64,000 nt of DNA from Polaromonas sp. (GTDB taxonomy: Bacteria; Pseudomonadota; Gammaproteobacteria; Burkholderiales; Burkholderiaceae_C). Location: the NCBI RefSeq assembly GCF_035638815.1, contig NZ_DASQZG010000005.1, positions 11,613 to 75,612 of the forward strand. Direction: 5' to 3'. Below the pieces are notes generated by a model. That model made no database searches, was not told where the DNA came from, and worked only from the letters and a program-made list of their open reading frames with translations. Both the position numbers and the translations under genes were made by a program. This document shows, piece after piece, positions 10,143 to 37,379 of the stretch (the first letter of the stretch is position 1; each line of letters starts with the position of its first letter).

Positions 10143-10164
10143 TATATAATCGTGGGCTCAATAG

Positions 10165-10240
10165 GCCCGGTAGCTCAGTCGGTAGAGCAGAGGATTGAAA
10201 ATCCTTGTGTCGGTGGTTCGATTCCGCCCCAGGCCACCAT
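10165..10240 (+). tRNA. tRNA-Phe (GAA)
   Basis: 76-nt cloverleaf, near-identical to canonical bacterial tRNA-Phe. Anticodon loop ttGAAaa, T-loop ggttcgattcc, encoded CCA. Confidence 0.95.
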
Positions 10241-10411: not shown

Positions 10412-11731
10412 ATGGGACAGCTCAACGAGCTACAGATCAAGGCGGCGCAGCCGCGCGACAAGGAATACATGCTTTCAGACGGGGAGGGCTTGTACCTGCG
10501 CGTCAGACTCAACGGGAAGGTCTGGATCTACCGCTACAAGCATGCAGGCCAGCAGGCCAAGCTGAGCTTCGGCCCTTATCCAACAGTGACCCTGGCCGTG
10601 GCGCGCAGGAAGGCCCGCGGCGAGGCTGAGAAGCGCGCGGGCGGCATTGACCCCAGGGACGCGCGGCGAGAGCAGTTAGAGCGCGATAGGGTGTCTCGGC
10701 TGAATACGTTCGAGCTGATGGCACGCGCCTGGCATGCCCAAGCGCACCAAGACCGTCAGTGGTCCGCAGGTTACGCCGAAAAGGTAATGCGGCATCTGGA
10801 GTTGCACATCTTTCCGTGGCTGGGCACGTTGATCATGGAGGCTATCAAGCCTACTGAGCTAGTGCGTTGCCTGCATCGTATCAAGGAGCGTGGCAATCTG
10901 GAAACGGCGCAGCGCGTCCGGGAGGCTGTTCAGCATGTCTTTCAGTATGCGGTTGACGTGGGCGCGCTGGACCCTGCCAAAAACTTTGTCAATAGCCGGA
11001 CTGGAGGCTTGCCCGCGCCGCGTGCCCGTCACTACCCGGCTATTACAGATCCCGAGAAGCTGGGCCAACTGCTGCGCGACATTCAAGGGTACAAAGGCCA
11101 TGTCATCACGCGTGCCGCCCTGCAGCTTTCACCGATGCTTTTCCAGCGTCCAGGGCAGTTACGCTTGGCCGACTGGGAGGATATCAATTTTGAGCAGGCC
11201 ATGTGGCGCTGCCCTCCTGAGAAGATGAAGCTTCGCGAGTGGATGAAACGAGACACACGGACGCCAGCACACTTGGTGCCCTTGCCGACGCAGGCCTTAG
11301 AAATCTTGCGTGACATCTATCCACTGACGGGCCCCGCTGGACCAATTTTCCGCAGCATGGCGAAGCGTTCAGAGGCGAGCCGCCATATGAGCGATAACAC
11401 AATCAACAGCGCTTTGCGAACGTTAGGCTACGACACCAGAGAGCAGATCACGGGGCACGGTTTCCGGGCGACGGCCCGGACGCTGATCCGTGAGTTGCTA
11501 GGCTGGGATCGTGAAATCATCGAGCGGCATCTGGCTCACGTTTCCGACGAGGAGCTGGGCGGCAGCTACGACCGAACGACATTCCTAGATCAGCGCCGGA
11601 AGATGATTCAGCTTTGGGCCGACCTGCTGGACGATTTAGCCGCTGGCAAGGCAGTTGCGCTTGCCACGGACCTTCGTCGGTCAACTTCGATTGAAAAATC
11701 CTCGAGCCTACTGGAGGAGGCTGGCGCATAA
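10412..11731 (+). CDS. int: tyrosine integrase, P4-like (DUF4102 arm-binding N-terminus)
   Basis: N-terminus LSDGEGLYLRVRLNGKVWIYRYK...LSFGPYPTVTLAVARRKA. Catalytic region includes GHGFRATART, HLAH and GSYDR (R..HxxR..Y context). Confidence 0.9.
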   Translation: MGQLNELQIKAAQPRDKEYMLSDGEGLYLRVRLNGKVWIYRYKHAGQQAKLSFGPYPTVTLAVARRKARGEAEKRAGGIDPRDARREQLERDRVSRLNTFELMARAWHAQAHQDRQWSAGYAEKVMRHLELHIFPWLGTLIMEAIKPTELVRCLHRIKERGNLETAQRVREAVQHVFQYAVDVGALDPAKNFVNSRTGGLPAPRARHYPAITDPEKLGQLLRDIQGYKGHVITRAALQLSPMLFQRPGQLRLADWEDINFEQAMWRCPPEKMKLREWMKRDTRTPAHLVPLPTQALEILRDIYPLTGPAGPIFRSMAKRSEASRHMSDNTINSALRTLGYDTREQITGHGFRATARTLIRELLGWDREIIERHLAHVSDEELGGSYDRTTFLDQRRKMIQLWADLLDDLAAGKAVALATDLRRSTSIEKSSSLLEEAGA

Positions 11732-12101: not shown

Positions 12102-13031
12102 TCATAGTGCTTGTATGGACTTGGCGAGTTCGCGGGGATCTTTGTAGCCTGGTGCTAACTGGGCATTGTTTGCACCGTACAGCGCGAATGAATCGGGTAA
12201 CCAGAGAGCATATTCGATGCCATTGAGATGATGGTCGGGAGAGCAGTCCACAGACCATCGCCGCAACATATAGCCCGCATTCGCTGCTCGGACCTTTATC
12301 TTTAGTACGTCATCTCTCATGCCGTAATCCATGCACACGAGTCCCGGCCGCGGGTGGCTGGGGTGCGGTACCAGCGCTAAGCTGATGACTCGGCTCCATT
12401 GCTCATCGTCATTCGCCATCTCGCCCTTGCCGGCAGGGCTGTTCTCGAGCGCGACAGGGTTTTCCATCCGATTGAGGACGTAGTCACGGAACTCTTCGTG
12501 GTCTCGGTCATATGCCCGTACGTGCCAGCGAATACCTGTGTCTATGAGTGCGATGGGGACAAGCGTTTTCTCGGTTTTTCCGCTCTTAACCGACGTGTAG
12601 TGGAGCTTGACCGCGAGCTTCCGATTAATGGCCCGGGAAATCGGCGCAAGCACCGCAACGTCAGGAAGAGTAAGTGGCAAAGGAGTGTCGCTTGGAAGCA
12701 TTGCCTCCCAGTCCTCTCCTAATCCTTCCCCAAAGCCTTCGGACAGTGCAGTGAGCACTCGGCGTGCGGAATGTTTGAACAGTGGCTGAAAGTTTGGCGT
12801 CGGCCTGTAAACCTTTTCTGCCGGATCCATTTCGCAGTTCCCGGGAGCGAACCGTCTATACAGCGCGATATCTCGAGTTACACCGGAGGGGCCCATACCA
12901 AAGCGCTCAGCTACATCTTGCCGGCGAAGCTCCCCCAGGAAATACAGCATGAAATCTATGTGTGCCAATCTTTCTTGCTGCGCACGTGGGTGGTCCTTCA
13001 GCTCACGGCTGTCTTCTTCTTTAATGTCCAT
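12102..13031 (-). CDS. HTH-WYL domain transcriptional regulator (CapW/BrxR-like)
   Basis: N-terminal wHTH (QERLAHIDFMLYFLGELRRQDVAERFGMGPSGVTRDIALY). WYL-type core (KLHYTSVKSGKTEKTLVPIALIDTGIRWHVRAYDRDHEEFRDYVLNRM). Divergent from the Ubl operon. Confidence 0.8.
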   Translation of the reverse strand: MDIKEEDSRELKDHPRAQQERLAHIDFMLYFLGELRRQDVAERFGMGPSGVTRDIALYRRFAPGNCEMDPAEKVYRPTPNFQPLFKHSARRVLTALSEGFGEGLGEDWEAMLPSDTPLPLTLPDVAVLAPISRAINRKLAVKLHYTSVKSGKTEKTLVPIALIDTGIRWHVRAYDRDHEEFRDYVLNRMENPVALENSPAGKGEMANDDEQWSRVISLALVPHPSHPRPGLVCMDYGMRDDVLKIKVRAANAGYMLRRWSVDCSPDHHLNGIEYALWLPDSFALYGANNAQLAPGYKDPRELAKSIQAL

Positions 13032-13077
13032 GAACGAATGATAGATGAAAAAGCAACGACCATGAGACCAAAATGGA

Positions 13078-13108
13078 CCATTACATGCCCAAAATGATCA
13101 TGTAATGG
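13078..13108. promoter_or_regulatory. inverted repeat in the WYL/Bil divergent promoter (candidate operator)
   Basis: ccattacatg-N11-catgtaatgg, 10-bp perfect arms in an AT-rich stretch 47 nt upstream of the WYL start. Confidence 0.45.
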
Positions 13109-13337
13109 GTTCAATATGATATAGTCACGATATGAATTTGGAAAAGGAGCTAAATAGACGTCAGAAATAAAAAGCGGCCGAGAACAAAGTCCTCGACCGC
13201 CGGGGTGTACACGTAGCTTTCGCAACGGGCACGGTTTCGCAGCCGCCATTGTGTTGCTACTCACTTCGGCCGTCAAGGCTTGCCCCGAAAAGGCCGACCA
13301 GGGCGTCGGAAATTAACCAAAGAAGTGAGCAAACACT

Positions 13338-13646
13338 ATGAATGCAATCTCTCCTGGCGAGAAACTCGCCCTCAATGCCAACTTGGTGCTTCGCGTCCGG
13401 TACGCGCCGGTGAAGCAACCCTTCGTACAGCCCCAGACGCCGGCCAGCACCACGCTGGCTGCGGCCAAGGCTCTCGCGCTTACGCACTTCGGCTTGACCG
13501 AAGGCGCGGTCGACGGCGGAACGAAGACCTACGAGATCTCGGTCGATGAGACCGTGCAGACCAACCTCAGTCTGACGCTTGGCGAACTGGCCACCCATGG
13601 CCGGCAAATCGAGCTGCTGCTGATCGAGCAGTTCCAGCAGGGCTGA
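13338..13646 (+). CDS. bilA: ubiquitin-like beta-grasp protein ending in Gly (BilA-like)
   Basis: 102 aa; C-terminus ...LIEQFQQG-stop. First gene of the Ubl/E2/JAB/E1 operon; stop is 4 nt before the next ATG. Confidence 0.75.
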   Translation: MNAISPGEKLALNANLVLRVRYAPVKQPFVQPQTPASTTLAAAKALALTHFGLTEGAVDGGTKTYEISVDETVQTNLSLTLGELATHGRQIELLLIEQFQQG

Positions 13647-13650
13647 CGCA

Positions 13651-14088
13651 ATGGCAGCCGAGTACGACCTGGCAACGTTCGAAAGGGACTTTGCCGAGGC
13701 GCTCGAACTGCCGGCTGCATCGCGTTGGAGCCTGGAGAGGGACGTCGACGTCCCTCTCCAGGCAATTTGCACGATGCACCCTCGCAGCGCGCCGCACGAG
13801 TTCTACAGGGTCCGGCTGCGCTGGACCGATTACACGGCGCCGTTTTCCATCAAATTCTTGAGTTTGGAAACCGGCGCCGACAGCGACCAGCACGCCTGGC
13901 CCAACATGGACGGCGCGAACCCGGGCGGGTTTTTTCTGTGCGCACCGTTTAGCAAGGAGGGCAACGACCACCACAAGGAGTGGGAGAGCTCCCCTTCAAT
14001 CCGCTACAGGACGCCGGAGCAGCCGCTGGTTTTTGCCCTGTTGCAACTGCAGTTTCTGCTGGACAACAAATATAGAGGGAGGGGCTGA
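13651..14088 (+). CDS. bilB: E2-like ubiquitin-conjugating enzyme homologue (BilB-like)
   Basis: 145 aa. HPN-like context HAWPNMDGANPGGFFLCAPF with candidate catalytic Cys. Positioned between the Ubl and JAB genes. Confidence 0.7.
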   Translation: MAAEYDLATFERDFAEALELPAASRWSLERDVDVPLQAICTMHPRSAPHEFYRVRLRWTDYTAPFSIKFLSLETGADSDQHAWPNMDGANPGGFFLCAPFSKEGNDHHKEWESSPSIRYRTPEQPLVFALLQLQFLLDNKYRGRG

Positions 14089-14089
14089 A

Positions 14090-14599
14090 ATGGCTCAGAA
14101 AACATGGGACCTGCCGCGCGACCTGCTCGCGCAATCGATCCAGGTTATGCGCCCCTACGGCGCGATCGGTCATGAGGGCTTGGCCCTATGGTTTGGTGAC
14201 GACCGGGGTGATGCGGTGGAGATAACGCACCTGATCGTGCCGCATGGCCCGGGTTTGGTGACGCATCCGTTGCACTTGAGCTTATCGCTGCGGGCCATCG
14301 CGCGGCTCACGGGCCTGTCCGGACGGCTGGATCGCTATTGGGCCGGCCAGATCCACAGTCATCCCGGGGTGGATGTGCGACTTTCAGAAGTTGACAAGAG
14401 GATGGGAGTGCTGGTGCAAGACTACCTCTCCGTGGTTTGCCCGCATTACGCCCAGCAGCCCGTCACCGACCTGCGAGAGTGCGGCATCCACATTTTTGAC
14501 CGCGGTGCCTACCGCCAACTTGCACCAGCGGAAGTGGGCGCGCGCATTCATGTGAGCGAACGTACCGTAGAGGTCGTCCCGGTGGAGGTACCAGCATGA
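14090..14599 (+). CDS. bilC: JAB/MPN (JAMM) metallo-isopeptidase (BilC-like)
   Basis: ATG 14090 after AGGGAGGGG. Upstream Glu (GHEGLALWF) plus exact JAMM motif HSHPGVDVRLSEVD (HxHx7Sx2D). Confidence 0.85.
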   Translation: MAQKTWDLPRDLLAQSIQVMRPYGAIGHEGLALWFGDDRGDAVEITHLIVPHGPGLVTHPLHLSLSLRAIARLTGLSGRLDRYWAGQIHSHPGVDVRLSEVDKRMGVLVQDYLSVVCPHYAQQPVTDLRECGIHIFDRGAYRQLAPAEVGARIHVSERTVEVVPVEVPA

Positions 14600-16134
14600 A
14601 CGCACAGGACGAGACCTTGGTTTCCAGCAGACCAATGGGCGTCGCCGGCGAGCTGGGTGCGAAAGCACTCGAACCAGCGATCGTTTTTGGACGGCAAGTG
14701 ATACTGACGGGTGAGCTGGCGAGCTTGCGGGAGCAAAACGGCCGCTGGTGTTTTCTCGATAGCCTACGCCTGCTTTCGCGAGTGGTTGGCGACCTGACCG
14801 TGGTCCTGCCCGATGAACGCGGCGACTTTCACTTGGAGGTTGACGAGGTCGTTGCCGAACTTTGGAGTCAGGGCCGGGTCCGGCGAATTGGCGCAAAGGA
14901 TTGCGATTTCCTAGGCGCTACGGCCATCTTGAATGTGGGCAACACGGTCCGCCCTGACCTGCCGTGGACCTCCATCAACGCCAATGGTTGGATTGCTCGA
15001 TGCACTTCTGGTTCGAAACCGTTGCCAGAAGGCAGTGCCATCGCCAACCCCTTAGCGTGCATGCTCGCGGCATCGTTTGGCGTAGCGGAGGTTTTCAAGC
15101 GCATCTACGGTGTGCCGCCGCACAAGGCCGCGCCAATGAAGGACGTGGCCTTCTCGCTGTTCGAACTCAGCGTCGAGTTCACCGACTTCGGTCCGAGGCT
15201 TCCGGACTCTATTTCGCTGCCCAACACACTGCTTCTGGGTGCCGGCGCTATAGGCAACGGTATCGTCCTGTTATCGTCGCAGTTGCCGCTTCTTGGCCGG
15301 ATGCTGGTACTGGACAAGCAGGTGTTTGGTCCCGAAAACTATGCCACCTGCGCGCTGCTGGACGTCGCCGACTGGATCGGCAAGCCGAAGGCGAAGCGCT
15401 TGGCCGGGTGGCTAACTACGCGTTCTTGCCTCGCCGTCACGGGCGAGCAAGCCACCGTTCAGAGCGCGATGGACGACGGTCTGCTTGATGGCCTGCGTCC
15501 TGACCTTGTGATCAACGGTCTGGATGACATCGGCGCGCGAAAAGCTGTGCAGAAGGTCTGGCCCTCCTTGCTGGTGGACGGCGGCATTAACTCGGTGGGT
15601 GCAGCGGTTAGGGCGCACAGCATGTCGCACCGCCATCTTGCCTGCATGCGCTGCGCGTTCGTTGACCCTGTCCAGGACCACATCGACGCGCAATCAAGGG
15701 TCACCGGTCTGGCACGCGCTTCGCTCGAAGGCAACCAGGATCGCCCCATTACGGACGAAGACATCGCGCACGCGAGCTCGGAGCGCCGGGAATGGTTGAG
15801 GGCGCAGCAAAGGCAGGGTCGGACGGTCTGTTCTACGATGAACCTGGCGCAAGCCGAAGGGCTCGGGCTGGCGCTGGAGGAGGGCTTCCAGCCATCTGTG
15901 CCCTTCGTGGCCACCGCGTCGGCCGCTCTCGTTATGGCGCACGTTCTTCGCACTTTGTTGTGGCCGCAAATGAAGTTTTTTAGCGGCTTTCAGTTCGAGA
16001 GCGTTTTCGCTGGGGCGGACACGGCCCAGCGCTATAACAAGCTGGCCTCGCCTGGCTGTGAGTGCACGAGGAACAAGGTCATCATTGACACGATCCTGGC
16101 GCGCAGAGACGCCGCAGCATGTAAGGCGCGGTAG
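14596..16134 (+). CDS. bilD: E1-like ThiF/UBA-family adenylating enzyme (BilD-like)
   Basis: ATGA overlap with the JAB gene. Rossmann motif LLLGAGAIGNGIVLL. Cys-containing segments (HRHLACMRCAF, PGCECTRNK). 512 aa. Confidence 0.8.
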   Translation: MNAQDETLVSSRPMGVAGELGAKALEPAIVFGRQVILTGELASLREQNGRWCFLDSLRLLSRVVGDLTVVLPDERGDFHLEVDEVVAELWSQGRVRRIGAKDCDFLGATAILNVGNTVRPDLPWTSINANGWIARCTSGSKPLPEGSAIANPLACMLAASFGVAEVFKRIYGVPPHKAAPMKDVAFSLFELSVEFTDFGPRLPDSISLPNTLLLGAGAIGNGIVLLSSQLPLLGRMLVLDKQVFGPENYATCALLDVADWIGKPKAKRLAGWLTTRSCLAVTGEQATVQSAMDDGLLDGLRPDLVINGLDDIGARKAVQKVWPSLLVDGGINSVGAAVRAHSMSHRHLACMRCAFVDPVQDHIDAQSRVTGLARASLEGNQDRPITDEDIAHASSERREWLRAQQRQGRTVCSTMNLAQAEGLGLALEEGFQPSVPFVATASAALVMAHVLRTLLWPQMKFFSGFQFESVFAGADTAQRYNKLASPGCECTRNKVIIDTILARRDAAACKAR

Positions 16135-16283: not shown

Positions 16284-17480
16284 GTGGCCATTGAGCGTCG
16301 TGAGAAACGAAGCCCTACGACGCTGGCGCCGGGCATTACACTTGCAGGCTGGCCCAACCCCTACATGCGTCCACTCGCCTACAACCCAAAATACGCGCTC
16401 AACGCCATCTGTCCTTACTTCACGATGTTTCCGCTGGAGTACCCGCTAAGGGTACTTAGGAAGCATCGCAAGGATGCTCCGGTGGTGATTGACCCGTTCT
16501 GTGGTCGTGGCACGACGTTATTTGCAGCGCGGGCAATGGGACTTAAAAGTTGGGGAATCGATGCATCGCCCGTTGCGGTGGCGATTGCCAGGGCCAAGCT
16601 TTCCAATGCGACGGCCGATGAGGCGCTGAGCCTCGCTGGTTTCCTCGTTGCTGGGGTCAGGCCTGCGCACACGCCGAACAGTAAATTCTTCAGGAAAGCT
16701 TTTCACAAAAACACGCTTCGCGGCATTTGCGCCCTGCGAGAAGGGCTGAGTGCGGGCCTTCAGGACACTGATGCTTCAGTTCTCCTGCGGGCAGCTGTAC
16801 TGGGCTGCTTACACGGCCCCCTTTTGAAGAGCGGTCTGGCCTCGTATTTCTCGAATCAGATGCCGAGGACATTTGCGCCGAAGCCAGACTACGCGCTGAA
16901 GTTTTGGAGCGCGCGTCACATGGAGCCTCCCGAAGTGGATGTGCTCAAAGTACTCGAGCGAAAACTAAAGCTCATCGCCTCTTCGCGGGAACTGCAGAAG
17001 GCGCGCTTCACCAATGTGATCCACGGAGACTCCACCGTGGCCGCGTCATTGCCCAAAAAACGCGACTACTCATTGGTCGTGACCTCACCGCCTTACTACG
17101 GGATGCGTACCTATGTTCAGGACCAATGGCTGCGCAATTGGTTCTTGGGAGGGCCCGCGACAGTTGATTACGCAGCGGGCGTCCAGCTCGAGCACACCGG
17201 TACCGATGTGTTTGCCGAGTCGCTTGGCAAAGTGTGGAAGAACATGGCACGCACCGAAGCGGACACCCTCGACTTGTACGTGCGTTTTGGTGTGATTCCT
17301 TCGGCGAAGGTGGACGCTAAAGAGCTTGTCGAACGTTCGCTGGAAGCCGCGAATTCAGGTTTGCGCGTACTGTCTTGGCGCAACGGTCTTTCTGCGACTT
17401 CCGGCAAACGGCAGGCAGATCAGATGAAGGCGGATTCAGGAGCTTGTGACGAGTTCGACTTCCATATCGTTCGCCACTGA
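16284..17480 (+). CDS. DNA amino-methyltransferase (N6-adenine or N4-cytosine)
   Basis: SAM motif I DPFCGRGTT near the N-terminus and catalytic motif IV TSPPYYGMRTY about 195 aa later. Start uncertain (GTG 16284 or ATG 16365; no clear RBS). Confidence 0.75.
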   Translation: MAIERREKRSPTTLAPGITLAGWPNPYMRPLAYNPKYALNAICPYFTMFPLEYPLRVLRKHRKDAPVVIDPFCGRGTTLFAARAMGLKSWGIDASPVAVAIARAKLSNATADEALSLAGFLVAGVRPAHTPNSKFFRKAFHKNTLRGICALREGLSAGLQDTDASVLLRAAVLGCLHGPLLKSGLASYFSNQMPRTFAPKPDYALKFWSARHMEPPEVDVLKVLERKLKLIASSRELQKARFTNVIHGDSTVAASLPKKRDYSLVVTSPPYYGMRTYVQDQWLRNWFLGGPATVDYAAGVQLEHTGTDVFAESLGKVWKNMARTEADTLDLYVRFGVIPSAKVDAKELVERSLEAANSGLRVLSWRNGLSATSGKRQADQMKADSGACDEFDFHIVRH

Positions 17481-18683
17481 GGCGGTCGATTGCTTCCTGC
17501 CAGCATAGGCGCGAACCAGTCCATCGAGGCTGCAATGAAGTCCAGCGGCCTTTAACCGTTTCTTGCGCTTGCTGAACAATGTCGCAAGGAGCGGTTGCTT
17601 CTCGGCCGGCGTGCCGCGGTGGATTCGCGCGTGGCACATCGGGCACAGCGCCACCACATTGGCGGGCACGTCAAGACTGGCGTGTGAGTACCGATGCTGA
17701 TGGTGGAGCGGGATGACGTGATGCGCCTCGACATAGTGCCTATGAGTCGAGGCGGCTATGAACAGCTGATTCCCGCAATCAGCTTCGCATGTGTGCTCAA
17801 CGGAAACGATAGCTGTTGCTGCAACGGAAGGATCCCGGTCGTAGACGGTGACCCACGTCGATCGCTTTGGTGGTGGAGGAACGGGAATGTCATACAAGGG
17901 CCCGCTGAGCTGAAGCTTCGCCGCGCGCTCTACCACTTCCGCTTGGAATATGGCTTCGTTCATTCGACCTCGTGCCTCGGCAATGCCGGCCAAATCGCCG
18001 GCTACTCCGGAGGGTATTGCCGCATACACATCCAGGATCTTCTCAACGGCATTCCGCAGGTCCACTGGAAAATTTGAGTCAATGGATGCGAGGTCGAACT
18101 TGCGGCTCAGGATGGCGCCGCGTTCGTAGGCTTTCCCATACCGCATCCTCGCGGAGAGCTCGATCCGGCCAGGTGCAAAGCCCTGAGGGGCCGGCAGACC
18201 ATCGGCGGTTTCGCCGGCAACCAATTCGACCGCTTCCAATACTTCGAGTCCCTCGAATCGATTCTCGAACTGCGCAATCCCTTGGTTGAGCGAGAGCCAC
18301 AGCGATTTGCAATTCTCATCGAACAGAAACGCCAGATACACCCCGCGCGTGGGCGTGGTCGTCACATCCTTGCGCATGACCATCACGTAAGGGATGAGGG
18401 TGTAGCGGCGACCCTTTTGGCCGGCGGAGGCCTTGATCGAAAGGGAGGGGTGATCTCTGACGGCGGACTCTATCCAGCCCTTGATGCGGTGCTCCAAGGC
18501 AACGACCGACGCCGGCGCCATCGCATCATGAAAGCGCATCGCTTTTGTAACCCGTCCTTCATTGTTGCGCCCTCCGGTGTCCAGTACGTACTGATCACGA
18601 ACGACCTGAACAGCGGCGAGGAACGCAATGTCCGCGACTTCGCCATCATCAGTCGAAATGGACATGGCATAACCCTTGTTCAT
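17436..18683 (-). CDS. DUF3578 (McrB-N-like DNA-reader) - HNH endonuclease
   Basis: DUF3578 signature KASAGQKGRRYTLIPYVMVMRKDVTTTPTRGVYLAFLFDENCKSLWLSLNQG. C-terminal HNH: YVEAHHVIPL...NVVALCPMCHARIH. Alternative start ATG 18665 has a better RBS (AAGGG). Confidence 0.8.
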   Translation of the reverse strand: MNKGYAMSISTDDGEVADIAFLAAVQVVRDQYVLDTGGRNNEGRVTKAMRFHDAMAPASVVALEHRIKGWIESAVRDHPSLSIKASAGQKGRRYTLIPYVMVMRKDVTTTPTRGVYLAFLFDENCKSLWLSLNQGIAQFENRFEGLEVLEAVELVAGETADGLPAPQGFAPGRIELSARMRYGKAYERGAILSRKFDLASIDSNFPVDLRNAVEKILDVYAAIPSGVAGDLAGIAEARGRMNEAIFQAEVVERAAKLQLSGPLYDIPVPPPPKRSTWVTVYDRDPSVAATAIVSVEHTCEADCGNQLFIAASTHRHYVEAHHVIPLHHQHRYSHASLDVPANVVALCPMCHARIHRGTPAEKQPLLATLFSKRKKRLKAAGLHCSLDGLVRAYAGRKQSTASVANDMEVELVTSS

Positions 18684-18692
18684 GAAATTCTG

Positions 18693-21600
18693 TCATCCAT
18701 GCCAACGAGCTTCTACGACGCGAGTGCCACCGCCAACCAAATTCACAACGTGCGTCGAACGCTTGTTGCAAAAGGATTCGAGATATGACTTGATGGCTTT
18801 TGCGGTTTTCAAGGTTTTTCGTTCACTGGGCAGGTGGAATGCCAGCGACTTCGGCATGATTACGATGCATTTCGCTTGAGCCCGAGAGACGGAAACGTTG
18901 ATGCGTTCCAGTTGCAAAAGGAAAAATTCCTCGCCGGCGATGATGTCTACATCACCAACTCCGAATGACACGATGATTGTCTGGCGCTGACCTCCCTGAA
19001 ACTTCTCCACGGTATCAACCGCTTCAGCGATGTCGTTGCGAGTCAGCAGCGGAAAAAGCGAAGATAGCTCGGAAATAATGAGCGCTCGTTGCGCCTTATG
19101 GGGCGTGACGATACCCACTACATTCTCAAGAAGCTCCTTAGGCGTGGGAGCGGCATGCAGCTTCCCAGCATTGAGCGGTTCGAGCTGGGTCGACATGGTC
19201 TTGTACAAACCCCACACCAAGGCCGCGACCATCTTCGCTTCGTGCAGGTTCGCTTGCGAGGCCGTGTCATCTTCATGGATAAGAGTACAGACTGCCTTGC
19301 CGGGAGCGAGCAGAGTTTCCCATGCGTCAGAGGTTGGTAGTGAAGCTGGAAGTCCAGCCATTGCGGCCTTGATGTCGAATAGCTGATGCAATCGCAAGGT
19401 GGGCTGAGCTGATGTGAGCTTCGGAGGATAGTCCAGTGTGAGGGCGAAGTCGACGATGTCTTGATTTGACCGGTAGTTGGTTAGCAGTGGAAGCTCCGCC
19501 ACATTGAAACGCTCGGTGAAATAAGCTTGAATGCTGCCAACGAGATACTCCGAGCCGACCGGGGGATCCAAAGCAGCGATTGGCGGCATTTGCTTCGTGT
19601 CGCCAGCGATGATGAGTTGACTTTCGTCCTTCAGGGTGGCGAGTGGCAAAAGGGCGAGCGTGACAGGGACTTGTGAACTCTCGTCAATAATCGCGATGTC
19701 GAACACGGGGGCAAGAACTGCGACTGCGTCGGCGAGCTCTGCAACTTTTCGGGAAGCATGTGCAGAGGTCGCCACCAGGGTGACGCGCTGGTCAGATAGC
19801 AGACTCGTTCTCAACTGTGCGTATGAAGGTGTTCCTTGCCTTAACGACACGTTCGCGCCGGCAATGTGCGCGGGAAGCAATGGTGAGGGGGGCAATTCGC
19901 GCGACTTCGAGTACGCTCTGAAGAAATCGCATGCAGCGCCACATTGCATGGCCAGAACGCCGAGCGCACGATCCGCCAGCTCCTCAACTGCCCGGTAGTT
20001 CGGACCAGTCAGGAGGACTTTGAGTGGCTTCTTCGCTTGGTTGGCTTCGAGCACCATTGCTGCCACCATCGCAGCCAAGGTGTCGGTCTTGCCCGTGCCT
20101 GGCGGTCCCCAGATCAAGCTTAAGGCGGCTCGCGCAGCGCCTTTAACAGCGTCGTATTGGCTATCGTTGAGCGGTGGGTTCGAGATACCTTTGGCGACAT
20201 TCGCGAGTGTGGTTGCGGCAACCGGTGTACGTCGTGCAGTCTTGGCGAGAGAAGTTGCATCCCACAGTATTTGCGATAGCGTTGTCTGAGGCCCAGTTCC
20301 GGATTTGACGGCCTTTCCCGCCTTGCCAAGAGCCTGAATAGCGTTAGGGTCTGGTTTGGCGTTTTTGGGGTCACCTACGGCATTGAGGACCTCGTCTATT
20401 TCACGCGTTGGATCGTAGGGTGGGCCTTGCAAGAGATACAGGCGCTCAGAAGCAATATTGACCACAGTCGGATGCATGGCTGCGGTAAACAAAGCATCTA
20501 CCCCGGGCCAACTCGCTGCAAACTCCACTTCGGCCAGGCCGGTGGTTCGGTCGAGGGACAGTAGTTGGGCACGAACGATTCTGTGCATCGCAATACCCAA
20601 AACCTTTGCTTCCAAGCTAGGGTCGATCGCCTGAAGGTCGAGGGAGTAACCGTTTTCGAGTGGGAAACCAGGCCGGCTCTCCACGCCGAGCGTGAGGTAA
20701 GCGTTCGGGGCTTCGATCTTCGCTTCAAGAGAGTCAGGACTCACCTTGAATCGGTAGCGTCTGCCCCCGAGATGACTCAACATCTGATCGAGGACGATTG
20801 CTTCGTATCTCGATTCCAGCCCTTCAAGTGGAGCTGCCAAGGCGGCACCAGCCAAAGTGACGGCGGTGGCATGGTCCAACGCGGCCCAACGAGCCCAGAG
20901 TTGTGAATCAAAGGCCAGCGACTTCGAAGTCCCAACCCCGGACAGTTTCAGTCGGCTCACCTTCCCTTTGATCGATGCCTTGAAGTCATGGTCTAGCCGT
21001 GCAACGATGGAGGTCAAGCTATAAGCCATTCCCCGAAGGTGCTTGCAATATCGATCCACGGCGTCGGATAGGCTTTGCTTGTAGGTAGCCCCCCACTCAA
21101 CCACACCGCTTGTGTTTGTCCAGATCTCGAACGTTCGCTCGCGTGGAATTCCGTTTGAAAGCGGCTCTGAGTGAAAGCTGTCGAACTTCAGAGGCGGCAG
21201 GGAAGTGTGCGAGTACTCTCGATTCGTTGCCAGGAGCGTGTAAACGTGTGGCACGGGCAAGTGCATCGCCAGTTCCACGACTTCTTGGATGAATACGATT
21301 GCCGGTGACACGGCGCCGTCTTCTCGCTCTAACAAGGCCTCGGCGGGAAAAAGCCAGGCAAGCGCTCGCTGTTTGGTGTCTTTCAGACCTAACACTCGGG
21401 GAAGATGTCGGCCGAACGCTTTGCACAGCTCCTCGTATTGCCTGAACTCCCAGAAGTAGATTTGTGCGTAGGGCAACTTGGGACTTGCGACCCCGGGTTC
21501 TGCCAACGAAGCCGCCTCCAAGGCGCTGCTAGCCAAGTCATCAATGAACTTGCTCAGCATCATCCATTCCGCATCGTCGTTGTCCCGCTCGACCATATGC

Positions 21601-22961
21601 CCTGTGTATTTCAGATGCGTGAGCGTCCCTGCGCTGCCCCATTTCGGTAGGTAGTCGGCTCGATATCCAATGCCAGTAAGCCGACCTGCCGACGGATCGA
21701 AAGTCACGACCACACTGGCTCGCAGCTCCACACCTTTGCCGATGGTATTGAGCTTGACCGAAGGGCCCACGGCGGCCAGATTGGTGATGAGCGACCCAGC
21801 TCGGCTCGCGAGCGAGTTGCGGTTGCGCTTAAGGAAGGAGTGCTGCGAAAAGGTGGGTGCTGTGGGAGCAAGGGTTTTTAACGCGTGGACGTTCTTGGTT
21901 CCACTGTTCTCCAGCACACGCCGTGCGCCTCGCGAGAGGCTGGCAATCTGGCTCAGGTGACCGGATCCCTTCGCTGCGGGCACGCAGTATCTGTCAGGAC
22001 TTGCATTGAAAATAGCCAAGTCGGCGGGTGACAACCAGTCCTGGAAGCCCAGCCAATCACAAGCGTTGCAGCGATTCCCGACGTGGTAGTCAACGGCCTG
22101 CCATCCGGCCTTGTCGCCAAGCCGCACTACGCGCGGTACGTCCTCCGCAAAGAACTTCTTGACGCTGGGCATGAACTGCAGAAAGTCCACTTCCTCTTTG
22201 CTCAGGTCCCGGACGAGCGCATGGATCAGATCTGATTTGAGTGCAGTGGGTTGCGCTTTGTACAAAGCGTCGAACTCCGTGAGAAAAGGTGTCGTCCAGA
22301 GGTACGTTTTCTCAGACACGTAGTACTTATCCTCCAGGCCATGCGCCTCAAGCCAATTCGCCAGGATGACGGCGTACATGCAGACCTCCGCCGCATAGCT
22401 CGCATTGCCCTCGGTGACATTCTTAAGATCTATCACGCAGAGCGCTTGGCGGGTATCCCCTGGCTCGATGCGCTTGCGGCCTCCGCTGCACGTTGCCTGC
22501 CACTCCCCTGGCGATGCGGCATCCACCAGCACAATGTCAGGGCGCATACCGGACAGTGGTGGGATGAGGTGCTGATCTCCTGGGGCGACGCTCAAATTGT
22601 CAAAGATCCGCTGGCGAAGCGGTTCAGGCTCAATGGCAGGCTGAATGCACAGAGTTGTCCCGGTGATCGTGGGCAGCTCTTTCAATAAGTCGACGTCCGC
22701 GAAGTTGGGTCGATGTCTTACCTCTTTGCCCAGCCTTGTGACAAGCATCTGGAACTGGTCTTTTTCGAACCGGTCACCGGCACCGGTCACTAGCTGAACG
22801 TTTTGACGCGATTTCAGGGGTGCAGGCAGCCCCGCCGCGGCAATCTCTGCTGGTTTGCCTCTAAATAAAGACAGATACAGTTCCCGATCGCACTGGGTGC
22901 GCAGGAACATGGAAAGCTTCGATTTCGACAAGTGCCTGGGTGGCATCGGTACTGTTGTCAA
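18693..22961 (-). CDS. 1422-aa fusion: N-terminal Cas4/RecB-like PD-(D/E)xK nuclease, central region (possibly degenerate RNase H-like), C-terminal Upf1/Dna2-like SF1B helicase
   Basis: TTG start 8 nt after AGGAGG. Nuclease motifs MRPDIVLVD, CVIDLKNV, YAAEVCMYAV plus Cys cluster (QCDRE, NRCNACDW, RYC). Helicase motifs GPPGTGKT, IIDESSQV, GDTKQMPP, TNYRSNQDIV, VTPHKAQ, VEKFQGGQRQTIIVS, NVSVSRAQAKCIVI. Confidence 0.8.
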   Translation of the reverse strand: MTTVPMPPRHLSKSKLSMFLRTQCDRELYLSLFRGKPAEIAAAGLPAPLKSRQNVQLVTGAGDRFEKDQFQMLVTRLGKEVRHRPNFADVDLLKELPTITGTTLCIQPAIEPEPLRQRIFDNLSVAPGDQHLIPPLSGMRPDIVLVDAASPGEWQATCSGGRKRIEPGDTRQALCVIDLKNVTEGNASYAAEVCMYAVILANWLEAHGLEDKYYVSEKTYLWTTPFLTEFDALYKAQPTALKSDLIHALVRDLSKEEVDFLQFMPSVKKFFAEDVPRVVRLGDKAGWQAVDYHVGNRCNACDWLGFQDWLSPADLAIFNASPDRYCVPAAKGSGHLSQIASLSRGARRVLENSGTKNVHALKTLAPTAPTFSQHSFLKRNRNSLASRAGSLITNLAAVGPSVKLNTIGKGVELRASVVVTFDPSAGRLTGIGYRADYLPKWGSAGTLTHLKYTGHMVERDNDDAEWMMLSKFIDDLASSALEAASLAEPGVASPKLPYAQIYFWEFRQYEELCKAFGRHLPRVLGLKDTKQRALAWLFPAEALLEREDGAVSPAIVFIQEVVELAMHLPVPHVYTLLATNREYSHTSLPPLKFDSFHSEPLSNGIPRERTFEIWTNTSGVVEWGATYKQSLSDAVDRYCKHLRGMAYSLTSIVARLDHDFKASIKGKVSRLKLSGVGTSKSLAFDSQLWARWAALDHATAVTLAGAALAAPLEGLESRYEAIVLDQMLSHLGGRRYRFKVSPDSLEAKIEAPNAYLTLGVESRPGFPLENGYSLDLQAIDPSLEAKVLGIAMHRIVRAQLLSLDRTTGLAEVEFAASWPGVDALFTAAMHPTVVNIASERLYLLQGPPYDPTREIDEVLNAVGDPKNAKPDPNAIQALGKAGKAVKSGTGPQTTLSQILWDATSLAKTARRTPVAATTLANVAKGISNPPLNDSQYDAVKGAARAALSLIWGPPGTGKTDTLAAMVAAMVLEANQAKKPLKVLLTGPNYRAVEELADRALGVLAMQCGAACDFFRAYSKSRELPPSPLLPAHIAGANVSLRQGTPSYAQLRTSLLSDQRVTLVATSAHASRKVAELADAVAVLAPVFDIAIIDESSQVPVTLALLPLATLKDESQLIIAGDTKQMPPIAALDPPVGSEYLVGSIQAYFTERFNVAELPLLTNYRSNQDIVDFALTLDYPPKLTSAQPTLRLHQLFDIKAAMAGLPASLPTSDAWETLLAPGKAVCTLIHEDDTASQANLHEAKMVAALVWGLYKTMSTQLEPLNAGKLHAAPTPKELLENVVGIVTPHKAQRALIISELSSLFPLLTRNDIAEAVDTVEKFQGGQRQTIIVSFGVGDVDIIAGEEFFLLQLERINVSVSRAQAKCIVIMPKSLAFHLPSERKTLKTAKAIKSYLESFCNKRSTHVVNLVGGGTRVVEARWHG

Positions 22962-23579
22962 TTGCCTTTCCTCCTTTGGGCCCCATCAGCACGTTCGCAT
23001 CGAAGCTGGCGCTCAGTGTACTGCCACGTTGCATTCGCTTACACGACTGACAGGGGCGAGTGAATGCCGCTGGGTGTTCGCCGTCAGCCCGCTTTCATTC
23101 CACTATTGCGCCTCCCAATGGCTTCCCTCCTGCAATTAGAGGAGGTCGGCAATACCGCCTACTAAAGAGCGCTTTGTTTGTATGCTCGTGGCTTGTCTAC
23201 TATGGGTAATAAGGATGTTCATGCGAAGCCCAACCGCAGTGCCGCCGAAGGCCCCAACCTTCGAGCGCCAGTATCCGCGCCCGGTCACTAGAAAGCGCCG
23301 CGGCGCATGCAATGGTCACTAGCTTGGCCAACAAGGTCAAGATACGGCAGGATTCTCGGGTGCGTCGATAGTTGCGAAAAATTGCCGAGCAATAAACCGT
23401 GAGAGAAATCCGCCTCTACTGGGCCGACCATGTAGGTCATCATGAAGACCAACTAAGGAGCGGTGGCATTTGGATCCCAGTAAGCGAAGCAGCGCCGCGA
23501 CCTTCAAATTGTCACTGAGGCTGGCAACGAGATCTACGGCGCTGGCTCGCATTTGGCGGAATAACGCGAGGCGTAGAAC

Positions 23580-24359
23580 CTAAACCTGCTTGGCCAGGAA
23601 TTCTGTGAAGGTGGAAAAAGAGCGCTGTCCTTTTGCAGTATTAAGTTTGGCCAAGATTGTCTTGGCAATGCGCTGTTGCAGATAGGCGCACAGCGGTTCA
23701 AACTTCTCAATGGGCAGCAGCTTCCACGGCGACCCGAACTGAGTTTCAATATTCACTGACAGGACTCCGTAGCTGAACTTTTTAGTCCGGGTCTTGTCGG
23801 CACTTGCAAATTCGTTGTACCGCTTGATCAAATACTGCACGTAGCGGCTCAACTGCTGGTCCGCACCGATCGTGCCGTGTGGCGCATTCACCAGAACAGA
23901 ACGACGGCTGGTCTTCACAGTGACTGTATGGGCCTGTATCGCTCCAGGACTGTTGATCGCGACATAGCCCGTGTTGTTGATGACAGTGATTCGCTTCAGA
24001 TCATTTAAAAGAATTTTCGCGAAGAAGGCGTCAGTTGGTTGCTCGGGCCGACCCGCAACGCCCTCGTGAATGGTTTTTATTTCCTGAAGGGCATCGACGC
24101 TGTAAAGCTCTGGCTCGGAATCCACAACCTTGTGATGATGTCTGCATAAAAGGATCAGGTTGGCGAAGTCATGTCGAGCCTCCTCAGCTTGCGCAGGATC
24201 AAACCGAGGGCCTCCATGTCTTCTGGCTTTGATGTGGCAGATTTCCCCGGTTACGGTGCCGGCGCTCTCAACAATGGGAAGCGCGCAGCCGGGATAAGCG
24301 CAAACATTGCCGGAAAGCGCGAACAGGCGCTTGATGGTCTTGTCGCTAGGTTCTGCCAA
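23580..24359 (-). CDS. HNH endonuclease with uncharacterised C-terminal domain
   Basis: N-terminal HNH core: NVCAYPGC...EICHIKARRHGGPR...NLILLCRHHHKVVD. Confidence 0.75.
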   Translation of the reverse strand: MAEPSDKTIKRLFALSGNVCAYPGCALPIVESAGTVTGEICHIKARRHGGPRFDPAQAEEARHDFANLILLCRHHHKVVDSEPELYSVDALQEIKTIHEGVAGRPEQPTDAFFAKILLNDLKRITVINNTGYVAINSPGAIQAHTVTVKTSRRSVLVNAPHGTIGADQQLSRYVQYLIKRYNEFASADKTRTKKFSYGVLSVNIETQFGSPWKLLPIEKFEPLCAYLQQRIAKTILAKLNTAKGQRSFSTFTEFLAKQV

Positions 24360-24503
24360 TCAGGTTCCTGGGGTTTGGGTGGGAGGATGTCAATCATGAT
24401 GTGCCTTCGCCACTCTCACGGACTTTTGTTTGCAAGGCAGCCCACAGCCATTCTGCGGTTAATAGGCTCGACGTAAATACTACACTGGGCTTAGGAGATT
24501 TTC

Positions 24504-24800: not shown

Positions 24801-24830
24801 ACTGACTAAGACCCAATACTGAGGATAAAT

Positions 24831-27366: not shown

Positions 27367-27404
27367 TCCCAGGGGCCACAGCCCCTTTTTTAGCCACCGA
27401 GGCC

Positions 27405-37345: not shown

Positions 37346-37379
37346 CGGCACGGCATCCGTCTGCGCCTGTGCCGTGCCG
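37346..37379. promoter_or_regulatory. inverted repeat upstream of the relaxase (oriT candidate)
   Basis: cggcacggca-N14-tgccgtgccg, 10-bp perfect arms, in the 375-nt ORF-free gap between traF and the relaxase. Confidence 0.35.

What the first reader, a model, noticed from the sequence alone, without database searches (positions are those of the whole stretch)
12102..16134. Complete Bil-type ubiquitin-like conjugation operon (Ubl-E2-JAB-E1) under a divergent WYL regulator, carried as ICE cargo
Seen: four tightly coupled genes (4-nt gap, 1-nt gap, ATGA overlap). They encode a 102-aa protein ending in ...QFQQG-stop, a 145-aa protein with an HPN-like WPNMD...GGFFLC context, a JAMM protein with exact HSHPx7SxxD, and a 512-aa ThiF/E1-like protein with GAGAIGNG. 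A divergently transcribed HTH-WYL gene lies upstream. Established: such operons were predicted by Iyer, Burroughs and Aravind. They were shown in 2024 (Bil, bacterial ISG15-like) to conjugate the Ubl to phage structural proteins. WYL regulators (CapW/BrxR) control several defence systems. Inference: the Ubl is encoded already ending in Gly, so the JAB enzyme would act in deconjugation rather than maturation. WYL control and ICE carriage make horizontal spread likely.
Basis: partly seen in the sequence, partly recalled or inferred. Interest (0 to 1): 0.7.

Follow-up and report, generated by a model that had tools for sequence, protein, structure and literature searches.

The report
Divergent Bil ubiquitin-like defence operon
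This is a complete four-gene bacterial ubiquitin-like conjugation operon of the known anti-phage Bil family, sitting under a WYL repressor in the cargo of a conjugative element; it is a divergent branch that standard models only half recognise, and it carries a conserved, previously undescribed antisense small-RNA unit in its leader.

Summary
Five genes lie at the stated coordinates with the stated spacings and motifs.

- **E1 and JAB protease:** they match BilD and BilC by sequence (PADLOC, and PDB 8TYZ/8TYX).
- **Ubl and E2:** they match nothing by sequence. Their AlphaFold models are a beta-grasp fold and a UBC fold. Their wider families link to Type I BilA and BilB.
- **Distribution:** the operon defines a rare clade, found in 17 loci among 185,579 species genomes.
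- **Clade features:** a single-domain Ubl that always ends in QG-stop, a 145-aa E2, and an E1 of about 510 aa.
- **Regulators:** these swap between loci. BrxR-type WYL occurs here, and HTH plus M78 peptidase (CapH/CapP-like) occurs elsewhere. This is typical of defence systems.
- **Context:** the operon lies next to a tRNA-Phe integrase, in a defence-rich cargo region of an element with a full conjugation module.

So it is a Bil-family system, Type I-like but outside the published seed sets. This is a new variant, not a new kind.

The unexpected part is upstream of the Ubl gene. Nearly all clade loci with upstream sequence carry a minus-strand sigma-70 promoter, a roughly 75-nt structured RNA and an intrinsic terminator. 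This unit is antisense to the bil leader and abuts a 3-5-codon mini-ORF. It probably adds post-transcriptional repression.

The parts
10164..10239 (+). tRNA-Phe (GAA), the likely integration site of the mobile element
   Evidence: ARAGORN. No second copy of its 3' end exists in the window.
10412..11731 (+). Tyrosine integrase (Arm-DNA-bind_3, Phage_int_M and Phage_integrase domains)
   Evidence: Pfam.
12102..13031 (-). BrxR/CapW-type HTH-WYL transcription factor, divergent from the operon
   Evidence: Pfam WYL 1.2e-11 and PADLOC WYL 5e-17. The 71%-identical Trinickia orthologue carries WHD_BrxR, WYL and BrxR_CTD.
13078..13108 (.). Candidate WYL operator: perfect dyad CCATTACATG-N11-CATGTAATGG
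   Evidence: At the same place in the two other WYL-linked loci the arms co-vary (ACGCGATCA/TGATCGCGT in L005; ACACGATCAA/TTGATCATGT in Trinickia).
13132..13170 (+). Leader mini-ORF (MNLEKELNRRQK-stop) ending 2 nt before the hairpin. In the other 13 loci tabulated it is a 3-5-codon ORF, mostly M-x-x-K-stop, with its own Shine-Dalgarno sequence.
   Evidence: The window copy is atypical: the SD (AAAGGAG) is kept but the nearby ATG is missing.
13166..13241 (-). Candidate ~75-nt small RNA: 5' single-stranded GC(C/U)AACC-like motif, stem-loop 1, then a 12-13-bp terminator hairpin (13201-13173) with a U-run. It is antisense to the bil leader.
   Evidence: A covariance model built from 8 other loci finds it here (32.7 bits, E 9e-8). 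There is one copy per locus, always on this strand. 15 of 20 pairs show compensatory changes, and 91.5% of cells are paired against about 40% in slid controls. The terminator stem is 95% canonical on the minus strand (32 G-U pairs) against 77% on the plus strand. There is no Rfam match.
13248..13276 (-). Sigma-70-type promoter of the candidate sRNA: TTGACG, 17 nt, CACAAT
   Evidence: In other loci it reads TTGACA, then 16-18 (mostly 17) nt of variable spacer, then GAnAAT.
13294..13309 (+). Hairpin 2 (CCGAC-cagggc-GTCGG) between the sRNA promoter and the Ubl Shine-Dalgarno sequence. In several other loci a T-run follows it on the + strand.
   Evidence: Read. Stems co-vary between loci (CCGGC/GCCGG, CCGAT/ATCGG, GTCGA/TCGAC). 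The strand and function are not settled.
13338..13646 (+). Ubl (BilA-like): a single beta-grasp domain of 102 aa with Gly102 as the last residue
   Evidence: AF2 pLDDT 82.6. Foldseek matches Caldiarchaeum ubiquitin (4e-5), SUMO, ISG15 and BilA 8tyz_B. All homologues end in QG. One ~95-aa relative matches the C-terminal domain (positions 79-157 of 162) of PADLOC BilA at 2e-7 and a second only marginally at 0.009; two others tested did not match.
13651..14088 (+). E2 (BilB-like): UBC fold with a WPN motif (83-85) and candidate catalytic Cys97 (codon 13939-13941), followed by E103, G104, H108 and W111
   Evidence: AF2 pLDDT 73.3. All 50 listed Foldseek matches are E2 enzymes or E2-containing complexes, with query TM up to 0.60. 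20 of 41 family members hit PADLOC BilB, and 13 hit Pfam PF24702 (DUF7665, now BilB-like).
14090..14599 (+). JAB/JAMM metallopeptidase (BilC-like): Glu29 and H89-x-H91-x7-S99-xx-D102
   Evidence: PADLOC BilC 2.8e-6 and PDB 8tyx_B BilC 1e-7. The alignment places Glu29 opposite the E33A site of BilC.
14596..16134 (+). [quoted passage not shown]
   Evidence: PADLOC BilD 1.9e-23 and PDB 8tyz_A 5.9e-10. Weak Pfam ThiF and Prok-E2_C hits, and a precomputed BilD_N hit.

Best explanation
This is a functional Bil-family (bacterial ISG15-like) ubiquitin-like conjugation system, most likely used for anti-phage defence.

**Inferred mechanism, by homology to the characterised Bil systems**
- The E1 adenylates the already exposed C-terminal Gly102 of the 102-aa Ubl.
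- The E1 takes the Ubl as a thioester on a cysteine in the insertion of its active domain. Cys412 is the only invariant candidate.
- The Ubl then passes to Cys97 of the small UBC-fold E2, which transfers it to lysines of target proteins without an E3.
- In the one Type I system studied, the target is the phage central tail fibre.
- The JAMM peptidase is not needed for maturation here. It most likely recycles or edits conjugates.

**Regulation (inferred)**
- A BrxR/CapW-type WYL repressor binds the dyad at 13078-13108, between the divergent promoters.
- A constitutive antisense RNA of about 75 nt pairs with the bil leader downstream of a mini-ORF. This would suppress leaky expression until the promoter is derepressed.

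The module travels as cargo of a tRNA-Phe-associated conjugative element.
For: **Gene content and motifs:**

**E1 and JAB homology to BilD/BilC:**
- PADLOC BilD 1.9e-23 and BilC 2.8e-6.
- PDB 8tyz_A 5.9e-10 and 8tyx_B 1e-7.
- Pfam BilD_N.

**E1 residues:** the nucleotide loop, Mg/ATP residues, both Zn-binding Cys pairs and an N-terminal Arg (SRP motif) are conserved. The nucleotide loop, CxxC and C-terminal Cys align with E. aridi BilD; the N-terminal Arg is only approximately aligned with its Arg9.

**Ubl:** beta-grasp fold.

**E2:**
- UBC fold, with a YPxxPPS...AWP...C...EG...H...W signature across 41 relatives.
- Half of those relatives hit BilB.
- hhalign aligns Cys97 and Glu103 with Cys138 and Glu144 of Type II BilB.

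**Operon conservation and terminal QG-stop:**

**Defence-type context:**
- Regulators swap between BrxR-WYL and HTH plus M78 peptidase.
- Neighbours include a methyltransferase, an MrcB_N-HNH type IV restriction enzyme and a DpdJ-like helicase.

**Mobile-element carriage:**

**sRNA:**

**Mechanism of the family:** Chambers et al. (10.1101/2023.09.26.559546) and Hor et al. (10.1101/2023.09.04.556158).
Against: - Nothing here is experimental. Defence, targets and thioester chemistry are all by analogy.
- The window's own Ubl and E2 hit no BilA/BilB, Pfam, NCBIfam or PDB sequence model.
- The E2 model has its active-site loop (residues 87-105, containing Cys97) below pLDDT 50. Foldseek E-values are only about 1e-2, although all 50 listed hits are E2 enzymes.
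- The E1 shares only 22% identity with the solved BilD, and its catalytic Cys could not be aligned with Cys417.
- No E1 structure was predicted.
- sRNA expression is not shown. In the window the mini-ORF lacks the SD-proximal ATG seen elsewhere.
Confidence: 0.8

Rival explanations
1. It is a genuine Ubl conjugation system, but its role is not phage defence. It could be a stress-response or element-maintenance pathway that modifies host or ICE proteins after DNA damage.
For: - Targets and roles of most Bil/Bub operons are unknown, and their authors raise stress-response roles.
- The regulators (WYL, HTH plus M78) respond to DNA damage in other systems, not specifically to phage.
Against: - It is homologous to a family whose tested member defends against phages.
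- It lies in a defence-rich cargo region.
- Regulator swapping is typical of defence systems.
Confidence: 0.12
2. It is a sulfur-carrier pathway of the ThiS/MoaD-ThiF type with a JAMM protease (as in CysO/Mec+ or QbsE/QbsD), not a protein-conjugation system.
For: - The E1 is annotated as a ThiF/MoeB-type adenylyltransferase in public records.
- A weak Pfam ThiF hit.
- It pairs a small beta-grasp protein ending in Gly with a JAMM peptidase.
Against: - A UBC-fold protein with a nearly invariant Cys is always present.
- The E1 has the eukaryote-like pseudo-dimeric domain architecture of BilD (BilD_N plus the active domain), not a homodimeric ThiF.
- The Ubl resembles ubiquitin, SUMO and ISG15.
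- There are no sulfur-metabolism neighbours.
- The Ubl needs no C-terminal trimming.
Confidence: 0.03
3. The conserved element upstream of the Ubl gene is not an sRNA. It could be a plus-strand leader or attenuator (mini-ORF plus hairpins), or only a promoter-terminator insulator.
For: - A Shine-Dalgarno sequence plus a 3-5-codon ORF is conserved on the + strand in 13 of 14 loci.
- Hairpin 2 is followed by a + strand T-run in several loci.
Against: - Hairpin 1 pairs properly only on the minus strand: 95% against 77%, with 32 G-U pairs.
- The minus-strand -35 and -10 hexamers are conserved, with a variable spacer of near-constant length (16-18, mostly 17 nt).
- A U-run follows the hairpin only on the minus strand.
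- The two readings are compatible: an antisense RNA can act on a translated leader.
Confidence: 0.25

Closest known systems
Type I BilABCD (Collimonas sp. OK412; Millman 2022, Hor 2024)
   Same: - Gene order Ubl-E2-JAB-E1.
- The Ubl is encoded ending in Gly.
- There is no E3.
- The E1 and JAB hit the PADLOC BilD and BilC models.
- The E2 family overlaps BilB / Pfam BilB-like.
- At least one relative's Ubl aligns to the C-terminal domain of BilA.
   Different: - The Ubl has one beta-grasp domain (102 aa) instead of two (about 163 aa).
- The window's Ubl and E2 fall below the BilA/BilB model thresholds.
- The E1 matches only positions 92-330 of the 453-position BilD model, at 81 bits, and is about 60 aa longer.
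- It has a WYL regulator and a conserved antisense sRNA unit that I did not find reported for Bil.
Type II BilABCD (CEHH/6C; Ensifer aridi TW10; PDB 8TYX-8TZ0; Chambers 2024)
   Same: - Same gene order.
- Single-domain Ubl.
[quoted passage not shown]
- The JAB has the same active site.
- The E2 has Cys followed six residues later by Glu.
   Different: - 22% E1 identity.
- The E2 is 145 aa against 204 aa and lacks the long disordered insertion.
- The CEHH spacing is not kept: His108 lies at +11, whereas CEHH has His at +8 and +13.
- The Type II Ubl carries residues after the Gly and needs BilC processing. Here there are none.
Bub operons (6E/DUF6527) and Type II CBASS Cap2/Cap3
   Same: - E1, E2 and JAB chemistry.
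- Frequent control by CapW/BrxR or CapH/CapP.
- Some relatives of this clade have Ubl-E2 or E2-JAB fusions reminiscent of BubAB.
   Different: - There is no DUF6527 serine protease, no E1-E2 fusion and no CD-NTase.
- The four proteins are separate here.
Antisense-RNA control of a translated leader (plasmid R1 CopA/CopT/tap with the CopB repressor; hok/mok/sok). This comparison comes from my own knowledge.
   Same: - A protein repressor of the promoter, plus a short, strongly promoted, structured antisense RNA against the leader of the regulated operon.
- A small leader ORF sits next to the target.
   Different: - There is no sequence relationship.
- The mini-ORF lies upstream of the antisense target and does not overlap the regulated start codon.
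- The function is untested.

Membership tests
Bil (bacterial ISG15-like) operons, general | Four separate genes in the order Ubl-E2-JAB/DUB-E1 | tested here: met
   The order is conserved in 14 genome loci, in metagenome contigs and on a Deinococcus plasmid.
Bil (bacterial ISG15-like) operons, general | The E1 is homologous to BilD, with an inactive N-terminal adenylation domain, an active domain and a Cys-bearing insertion | tested here: met
   PADLOC BilD 1.9e-23, PDB 8tyz_A 5.9e-10 over residues 56-355, and Pfam BilD_N precomputed. The catalytic Cys is assigned only by conservation (C412). No structure was predicted.
Bil (bacterial ISG15-like) operons, general | JAMM peptidase homologous to BilC with an intact active site | tested here: met
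   PADLOC BilC 2.8e-6 and PDB 8tyx_B 1e-7. Glu29 and HxHx7SxxD are present.
Bil (bacterial ISG15-like) operons, general | UBC-fold E2 with a conserved catalytic Cys and an adjacent His | tested here: met
   All 50 listed Foldseek hits are E2 enzymes or E2-containing complexes. C97 and H108 are nearly invariant in 41 relatives. The active-site loop is poorly modelled.
Bil (bacterial ISG15-like) operons, general | Beta-grasp Ubl with a conserved C-terminal Gly | tested here: met
Bil (bacterial ISG15-like) operons, general | Ubl conjugation to targets and protection against phage | not testable with these tools
   Needs expression, western blot or mass spectrometry, and plaque assays.
Type I Bil | The Ubl and E2 are recognised by the BilA/BilB models built from the Type I set | tested here: not met
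   The window's Ubl and E2 give no PADLOC hit at E<=0.01. The link is only transitive: 20 of 41 E2 relatives hit BilB, and of four relatives' Ubls tested one hits the C-terminal half of BilA at 2e-7, one marginally at 0.009, and two not at all.
Type I Bil | Ubl with two fused beta-grasp domains (ISG15-like) | tested here: not met
   It has a single domain of 102 aa. The literature notes that single-domain variants exist in the wider family.
Type I Bil | The Ubl is encoded with Gly as its last residue | tested here: met
   Compare Hor et al..
Type II Bil (CEHH/6C) | E2 with the CEHH motif (C, E at +6, H at +8, H at +13) and about 200 aa | tested here: not met
   C97 and E103 (+6) are present. 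Position +8 is Asn in the window, and it is His in the three most divergent near homologues (P0019-P0021). The invariant His is at +11. The protein is 145 aa. hhalign to E. aridi BilB gives only 50% probability.
Type II Bil (CEHH/6C) | The Ubl precursor carries residues after the conserved Gly and needs BilC processing | tested here: not met
   No extension is present in any member.
Bub (6E/DUF6527) operons | A DUF6527 serine protease, and fused Ubl-E2 / JAB-E1 or E2-E1 proteins | tested here: not met
   There is no such gene or fusion in the window.
BrxR/CapW WYL regulators | Winged-helix, WYL and BrxR C-terminal domains, divergent from a defence operon, with a palindromic operator | tested here: met
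   WYL domain. The orthologue carries WHD_BrxR, WYL and BrxR_CTD. The dyad has co-varying arms. DNA binding is not testable here.
Integrative conjugative element (Tn4371-like layout; the family name is from my own knowledge) | Integrase at a tRNA, relaxase, coupling protein, a mating-pair-formation gene set, and flanking att repeats | tested here: inconclusive
   Present: tRNA-Phe, integrase, RepA (RPA), DUF3363 relaxase, TraG, TrbE/VirB4, TrbL, VirB8, CagX/TrbG and TrbI. No attR repeat was found within the window.

The most novel reading that the evidence does not exclude
This Bil clade is a five-part system. Besides the four proteins it encodes a dedicated ~75-nt antisense RNA and a translated mini-ORF in the leader. 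Together with swappable DNA-damage-type repressors, these would form a threshold switch, or a direct infection sensor, that gates a potentially self-damaging ubiquitin-like conjugation machine. An RNA layer of control has not been described for any bacterial ubiquitination-like system, as far as I could find.
Probability: 0.4. Interest if true: 0.65.

Novelty: new variant of a known kind. Interest (0 to 1): 0.5.

Why it matters
Bil systems are the closest bacterial relatives of eukaryotic ubiquitination, and only two have been studied in depth.

- **A compact branch current tools would probably miss.** PADLOC 2.0 recognises only two of the four proteins. NCBI annotation calls them hypothetical proteins or ThiF.
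- **Easy to test.** The single-domain Ubl is ready for activation, and the E2 is very small and eukaryote-like, with YPxxPPS and WPN motifs and a C-terminal helix. Both would be convenient for biochemistry and for tracing E2 evolution.
- **Regulation.** The conserved antisense RNA and mini-ORF suggest how cells keep such a system silent. This is directly testable with RNA-seq and reporter fusions.
- **Spread.** Carriage on a conjugative element, with interchangeable regulators, documents how the module moves between hosts.

Tried and rejected
- **Direct sequence identification of the Ubl and E2 failed.** Pfam, PADLOC, NCBIfam, PDB phmmer and a PDB profile search with close homologues all gave nothing.
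- **hhalign of the close E2 family against Type II BilB gave nothing**. It became marginal only with a broader alignment, and that broader profile still did not retrieve BilB significantly from the PDB (E 0.98).
- **The search for related loci failed with an alignment that included the Type II BilD,** because no conserved block was found. It was repeated without that sequence.
- **No right-hand att repeat of tRNA-Phe was found**.
- **Rfam has no family for the intergenic region**.
- **The sRNA model has limited reach.** It gave only weak top hits at the expected site in L010 and in the Deinococcus plasmid (E about 0.1). It found nothing convincing upstream of a more BilB-typical operon with a 416-aa E1 (L025). 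The element therefore seems limited to this clade.
- **I could not obtain Type I (Collimonas) protein sequences,** so no tree places this clade formally relative to Types I and II.
- **Rejected as part of the system:** the downstream methyltransferase, type IV restriction enzyme and helicase. They are absent from the other loci.

Full report
**1. Observation**

The ORF list and direct reading confirm five genes.
- A WYL gene on the minus strand (12102-13031).
- A 102-aa protein ending ...EQFQQG-stop (13338-13646).
- A 145-aa protein with WPNMD...GGFFLC (13651-14088).
- A 169-aa JAMM protein from ATG 14090 to 14599, with Glu29 and HSHPGVDVRLSEVD. This is the canonical HxHx7SxxD.
- A 512-aa protein with GAGAIGNG (14596-16134).

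The proposed operator is a perfect 10-nt inverted repeat with an 11-nt spacer at 13078-13108. Identical proteins are on record from a Polaromonas sp. metagenome-assembled genome on a 127-kb contig.

**2. What the proteins are**

*E1.* It matches the PADLOC BilD model (1.9e-23) and the solved Type II BilD (PDB 8TYZ, 5.9e-10 over residues 56-355). It carries the precomputed Pfam family BilD_N. It also gives the same weak N-terminal 'Prok-E2_C' hit that Chambers et al. showed to be the inactive adenylation domain.

Within the family the following residues are invariant:
- the nucleotide loop G215-G222, and D240, K265, D310 and R315;
- the CxxC pair C350/C353 and the C-terminal CxC pair C488/C490, which correspond to the zinc site of BilD;
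- an N-terminal SRP arginine;
- one cysteine in the insertion, C412.

*JAB.* It matches BilC (PADLOC 2.8e-6; PDB 8TYX 1e-7). Glu29 aligns with the mutated Glu33 of that entry.

*Ubl and E2.* Neither matches anything by sequence.
- The Ubl model (pLDDT 82.6) is a beta-grasp fold. It matches Caldiarchaeum ubiquitin, SUMO, ISG15 and BilA itself.
- The E2 model (pLDDT 73.3, pTM 0.72) matches only E2 enzymes among the 50 listed hits, including Rad6 and UbcH5, with query TM-scores up to 0.60.
- The active-site loop (residues 87-105) is modelled poorly, and Foldseek E-values are only about 1e-2.

*Link of the E2 and Ubl to Bil.* An exhaustive HMMER search with the E2 family found only 73 clusters among 1.84 billion representatives. 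An alignment of 41 of them shows a classical E2 signature:
- YPxxPPSVxF;
- AWP, the HPN equivalent;
- Cys97, Glu103-Gly104, His108 and Trp111.

Twenty of the 41 hit PADLOC BilB (best 2.8e-15). Thirteen hit Pfam PF24702, which is DUF7665 in the local copy and is shown as 'BilB-like' in the precomputed annotations. Of four relatives' Ubls of about 80-104 aa tested against PADLOC BilA, one aligned to the C-terminal beta-grasp domain at 2e-7, one only marginally (0.009), and two gave no hit. A profile comparison with Type II BilB is marginal (probability 50%), but it aligns Cys97 and Glu103 with Cys138 and Glu144.

**3. The clade**

- A scan of 185,579 species genomes found 17 loci. Most are Burkholderiales, with single cases in Rhodanobacter, Bryobacter and Geobacteraceae.
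- A Deinococcus megaplasmid carries a 37%-identical version.
- Wherever upstream sequence exists, the order Ubl-E2-JAB-E1 and the tight spacing are kept. Every Ubl ends in QG followed directly by a stop codon.
- Some metagenomic relatives are Ubl-E2 fusions joined at ...QG, or E2-JAB fusions.
- Regulators differ between loci. BrxR-type WYL occurs in the window, in Trinickia and in one beta-proteobacterial MAG. Elsewhere there is an HTH protein plus an M78 peptidase, either separate or fused, as in CapH/CapP.
- Swapping of such regulators is a known property of defence and related operons.

**4. Classification**

The literature divides Bil into two types.
- Type I has a two-domain Ubl that ends in Gly.
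- Type II (CEHH/6C) has a 204-aa E2, and its Ubl usually needs trimming.

The window shares with Type I the terminal Gly and the BilB-like E2 family. It shares with Type II the single-domain Ubl and the BilD_N / Prok-E2_C N-terminal domain of the E1.

It fails the direct model test for BilA and BilB. It lacks the two-domain Ubl. It lacks the CEHH spacing and the long E2 insertion.

Hor et al. already note that the wider family includes single-domain Ubls. I therefore file it as a Bil-family system, Type I-like, but outside the described seed sets.

**5. Context**

- tRNA-Phe (10164-10239) is followed by a tyrosine integrase, and then by the WYL-Bil module.
- Next come a DNA methyltransferase, an MrcB_N-HNH type IV restriction enzyme, a 1422-aa DpdJ-like helicase and further nucleases.
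- Further on are RepA, a DUF3363 relaxase, TraG, TrbE/VirB4, TrbL, VirB8, TrbG/CagX and TrbI.
- This is the layout of an integrative conjugative element with a defence cargo region.
- I found no second copy of the tRNA 3' end in the window, so the right boundary is open.

**6. An unexpected conserved non-coding unit**

*Conservation.* The WYL-Ubl intergenic region aligned with the two other WYL-linked loci shows about 78% nucleotide identity over a 116-nt block within 13165-13285. The adjacent Ubl protein is only about 62% identical in amino-acid sequence, which suggests selection on the non-coding block; the two figures are not directly comparable. The same architecture appears upstream of the Ubl gene in nearly all clade loci with upstream sequence, whatever the regulator.

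*Layout on the minus strand*:
- a -35 box, TTGACA (TTGACG in the window);
- a variable spacer of 16-18 (mostly 17) nt;
- a -10 box, GAnAAT (CACAAT in the window);
- about 9 nt of single-stranded GC(C/U)AACC-like sequence;
- a variable stem-loop;
- a 12-13-bp hairpin followed by a U-run.

*Strand.* The hairpin is 95% canonically paired on the minus strand, including 32 G-U pairs. On the plus strand it is only 77% paired. This identifies the transcribed strand.

*Covariance model.*
- A model built from eight loci recovered the element in seven held-out loci, including the window (13166-13241, minus strand, E 9e-8).
- There is one copy per locus, always antisense to and upstream of the Ubl gene, in 306 kb searched.
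- Fifteen of 20 pairs show compensatory changes. 91.5% of cells are paired, against about 40% in slid controls. That alignment is fitted to the model, so the figures lean in its favour.
- Rfam has no match.

*Plus-strand features.*
- A Shine-Dalgarno sequence and a 3-5-codon ORF, mostly M-x-x-K-stop, end exactly at the sRNA 3' end in 13 of 14 loci.
- The window keeps the SD but has only a distant in-frame ATG, giving a 12-aa ORF at 13132-13170.
- A second co-varying hairpin (13294-13309) precedes the Ubl SD. In some loci a plus-strand T-run follows it.
- The element is weak or absent in a more distant BilB-typical operon.

*Reading.* I interpret this as a constitutive cis-antisense RNA acting on a translated leader. 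That is an inference and is not shown.

**7. Mechanism and confidence**

Shown by computation:
- gene content;
- intact catalytic motifs;
- protein folds;
- homology to BilC and BilD;
- conservation of the operon and of the terminal Gly;
- regulator swapping;
- conservation and covariation of the RNA element.

Inferred from the characterised Bil systems:
- adenylation of Gly102;
- thioester transfer from E1-Cys412 to E2-Cys97;
- E3-independent lysine conjugation;
- a deconjugating or editing role for the JAB peptidase;
- phage defence.

Inferred from BrxR/CapW knowledge: repression at the dyad, with derepression on infection or DNA damage.

**8. Verdict**

The system is a new variant of a known kind. 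Its added interest lies in the compact, eukaryote-like E2, in the fact that current models miss half of the system, and above all in the conserved antisense RNA and mini-ORF leader.

Noticed in passing
window 13132-13309 (sRNA 13166-13241 minus strand; promoter 13248-13276; mini-ORF 13132-13170; hairpin 2 13294-13309): A conserved promoter, ~75-nt structured RNA and terminator lie antisense to the bil leader. On the plus strand there is a tiny leader ORF and a second co-varying hairpin. The unit is present in nearly all clade loci with upstream sequence, regardless of regulator type, and has no Rfam family.
   Followed up: yes
window 16284-28460: A defence-type cargo region lies downstream of the operon. 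It holds an N6/N4 DNA methyltransferase (16284-17480), an MrcB_N-HNH type IV restriction enzyme (17436-18683, -), a 1422-aa DpdJ/Mokosh-like helicase (18693-22961, -), an HNH protein (23580-24359, -), a C92 amidase-domain protein (24831-26117) and a staphylococcal-nuclease homologue (27669-28460). They are not conserved next to Bil in other loci.
   Followed up: partly
window 33909-55129: A conjugation and maintenance module: RepA (RPA), a DUF3363 relaxase (37334-39397), a TraG coupling protein (43089-45266), TrbE/VirB4 (47517-49727), TrbL, VirB8, CagX/TrbG and TrbI. An alpha/beta hydrolase (40352-41380) is inserted between the relaxase and TraG.
   Followed up: partly
window 55384-56334 and 61467-62381: Two AbiEii-type nucleotidyltransferase toxin genes (type IV toxin-antitoxin / abortive infection). 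One lies just after the Trb genes and one after tRNA-Arg (60356-60429).
   Followed up: no
window 63828-63867: A short tandem array of an 8-nt unit: ATCTCAGA, five copies.
   Followed up: no
window 26783-26843 and 31379-31439: A 61-nt direct repeat (89% identical) containing TTGAC, 4.6 kb apart in the cargo region.
   Followed up: no
L007 1554-3256 (Ramlibacter MAG): A second ubiquitin-like module lies next to the Bil-like operon: a 461-aa JAB-ThiF fusion followed by a 109-aa ORF. This is reminiscent of the Bub or Cap2/Cap3 components.
   Followed up: no
proteins P0163, P0165 (about 245 aa); P0201, P0229 (about 310 aa): Metagenomic relatives in which the Ubl is fused in frame to the E2 (junction ...QIVQG-E...), or the E2 to the JAB peptidase. 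The Ubl-E2 fusions would need cleavage after QG, so the JAB enzyme of this family can probably also process precursors.
   Followed up: partly
L002 2929-4487, L009, L012, L013: In several loci the upstream regulator is a 410-aa HTH-M78 fusion preceded by a HigB-like small ORF and co-directional with the operon. The 27-codon ORF that runs into the mini-ORF in L002, L007 and L012 may be its 3' neighbour or an artefact.
   Followed up: no
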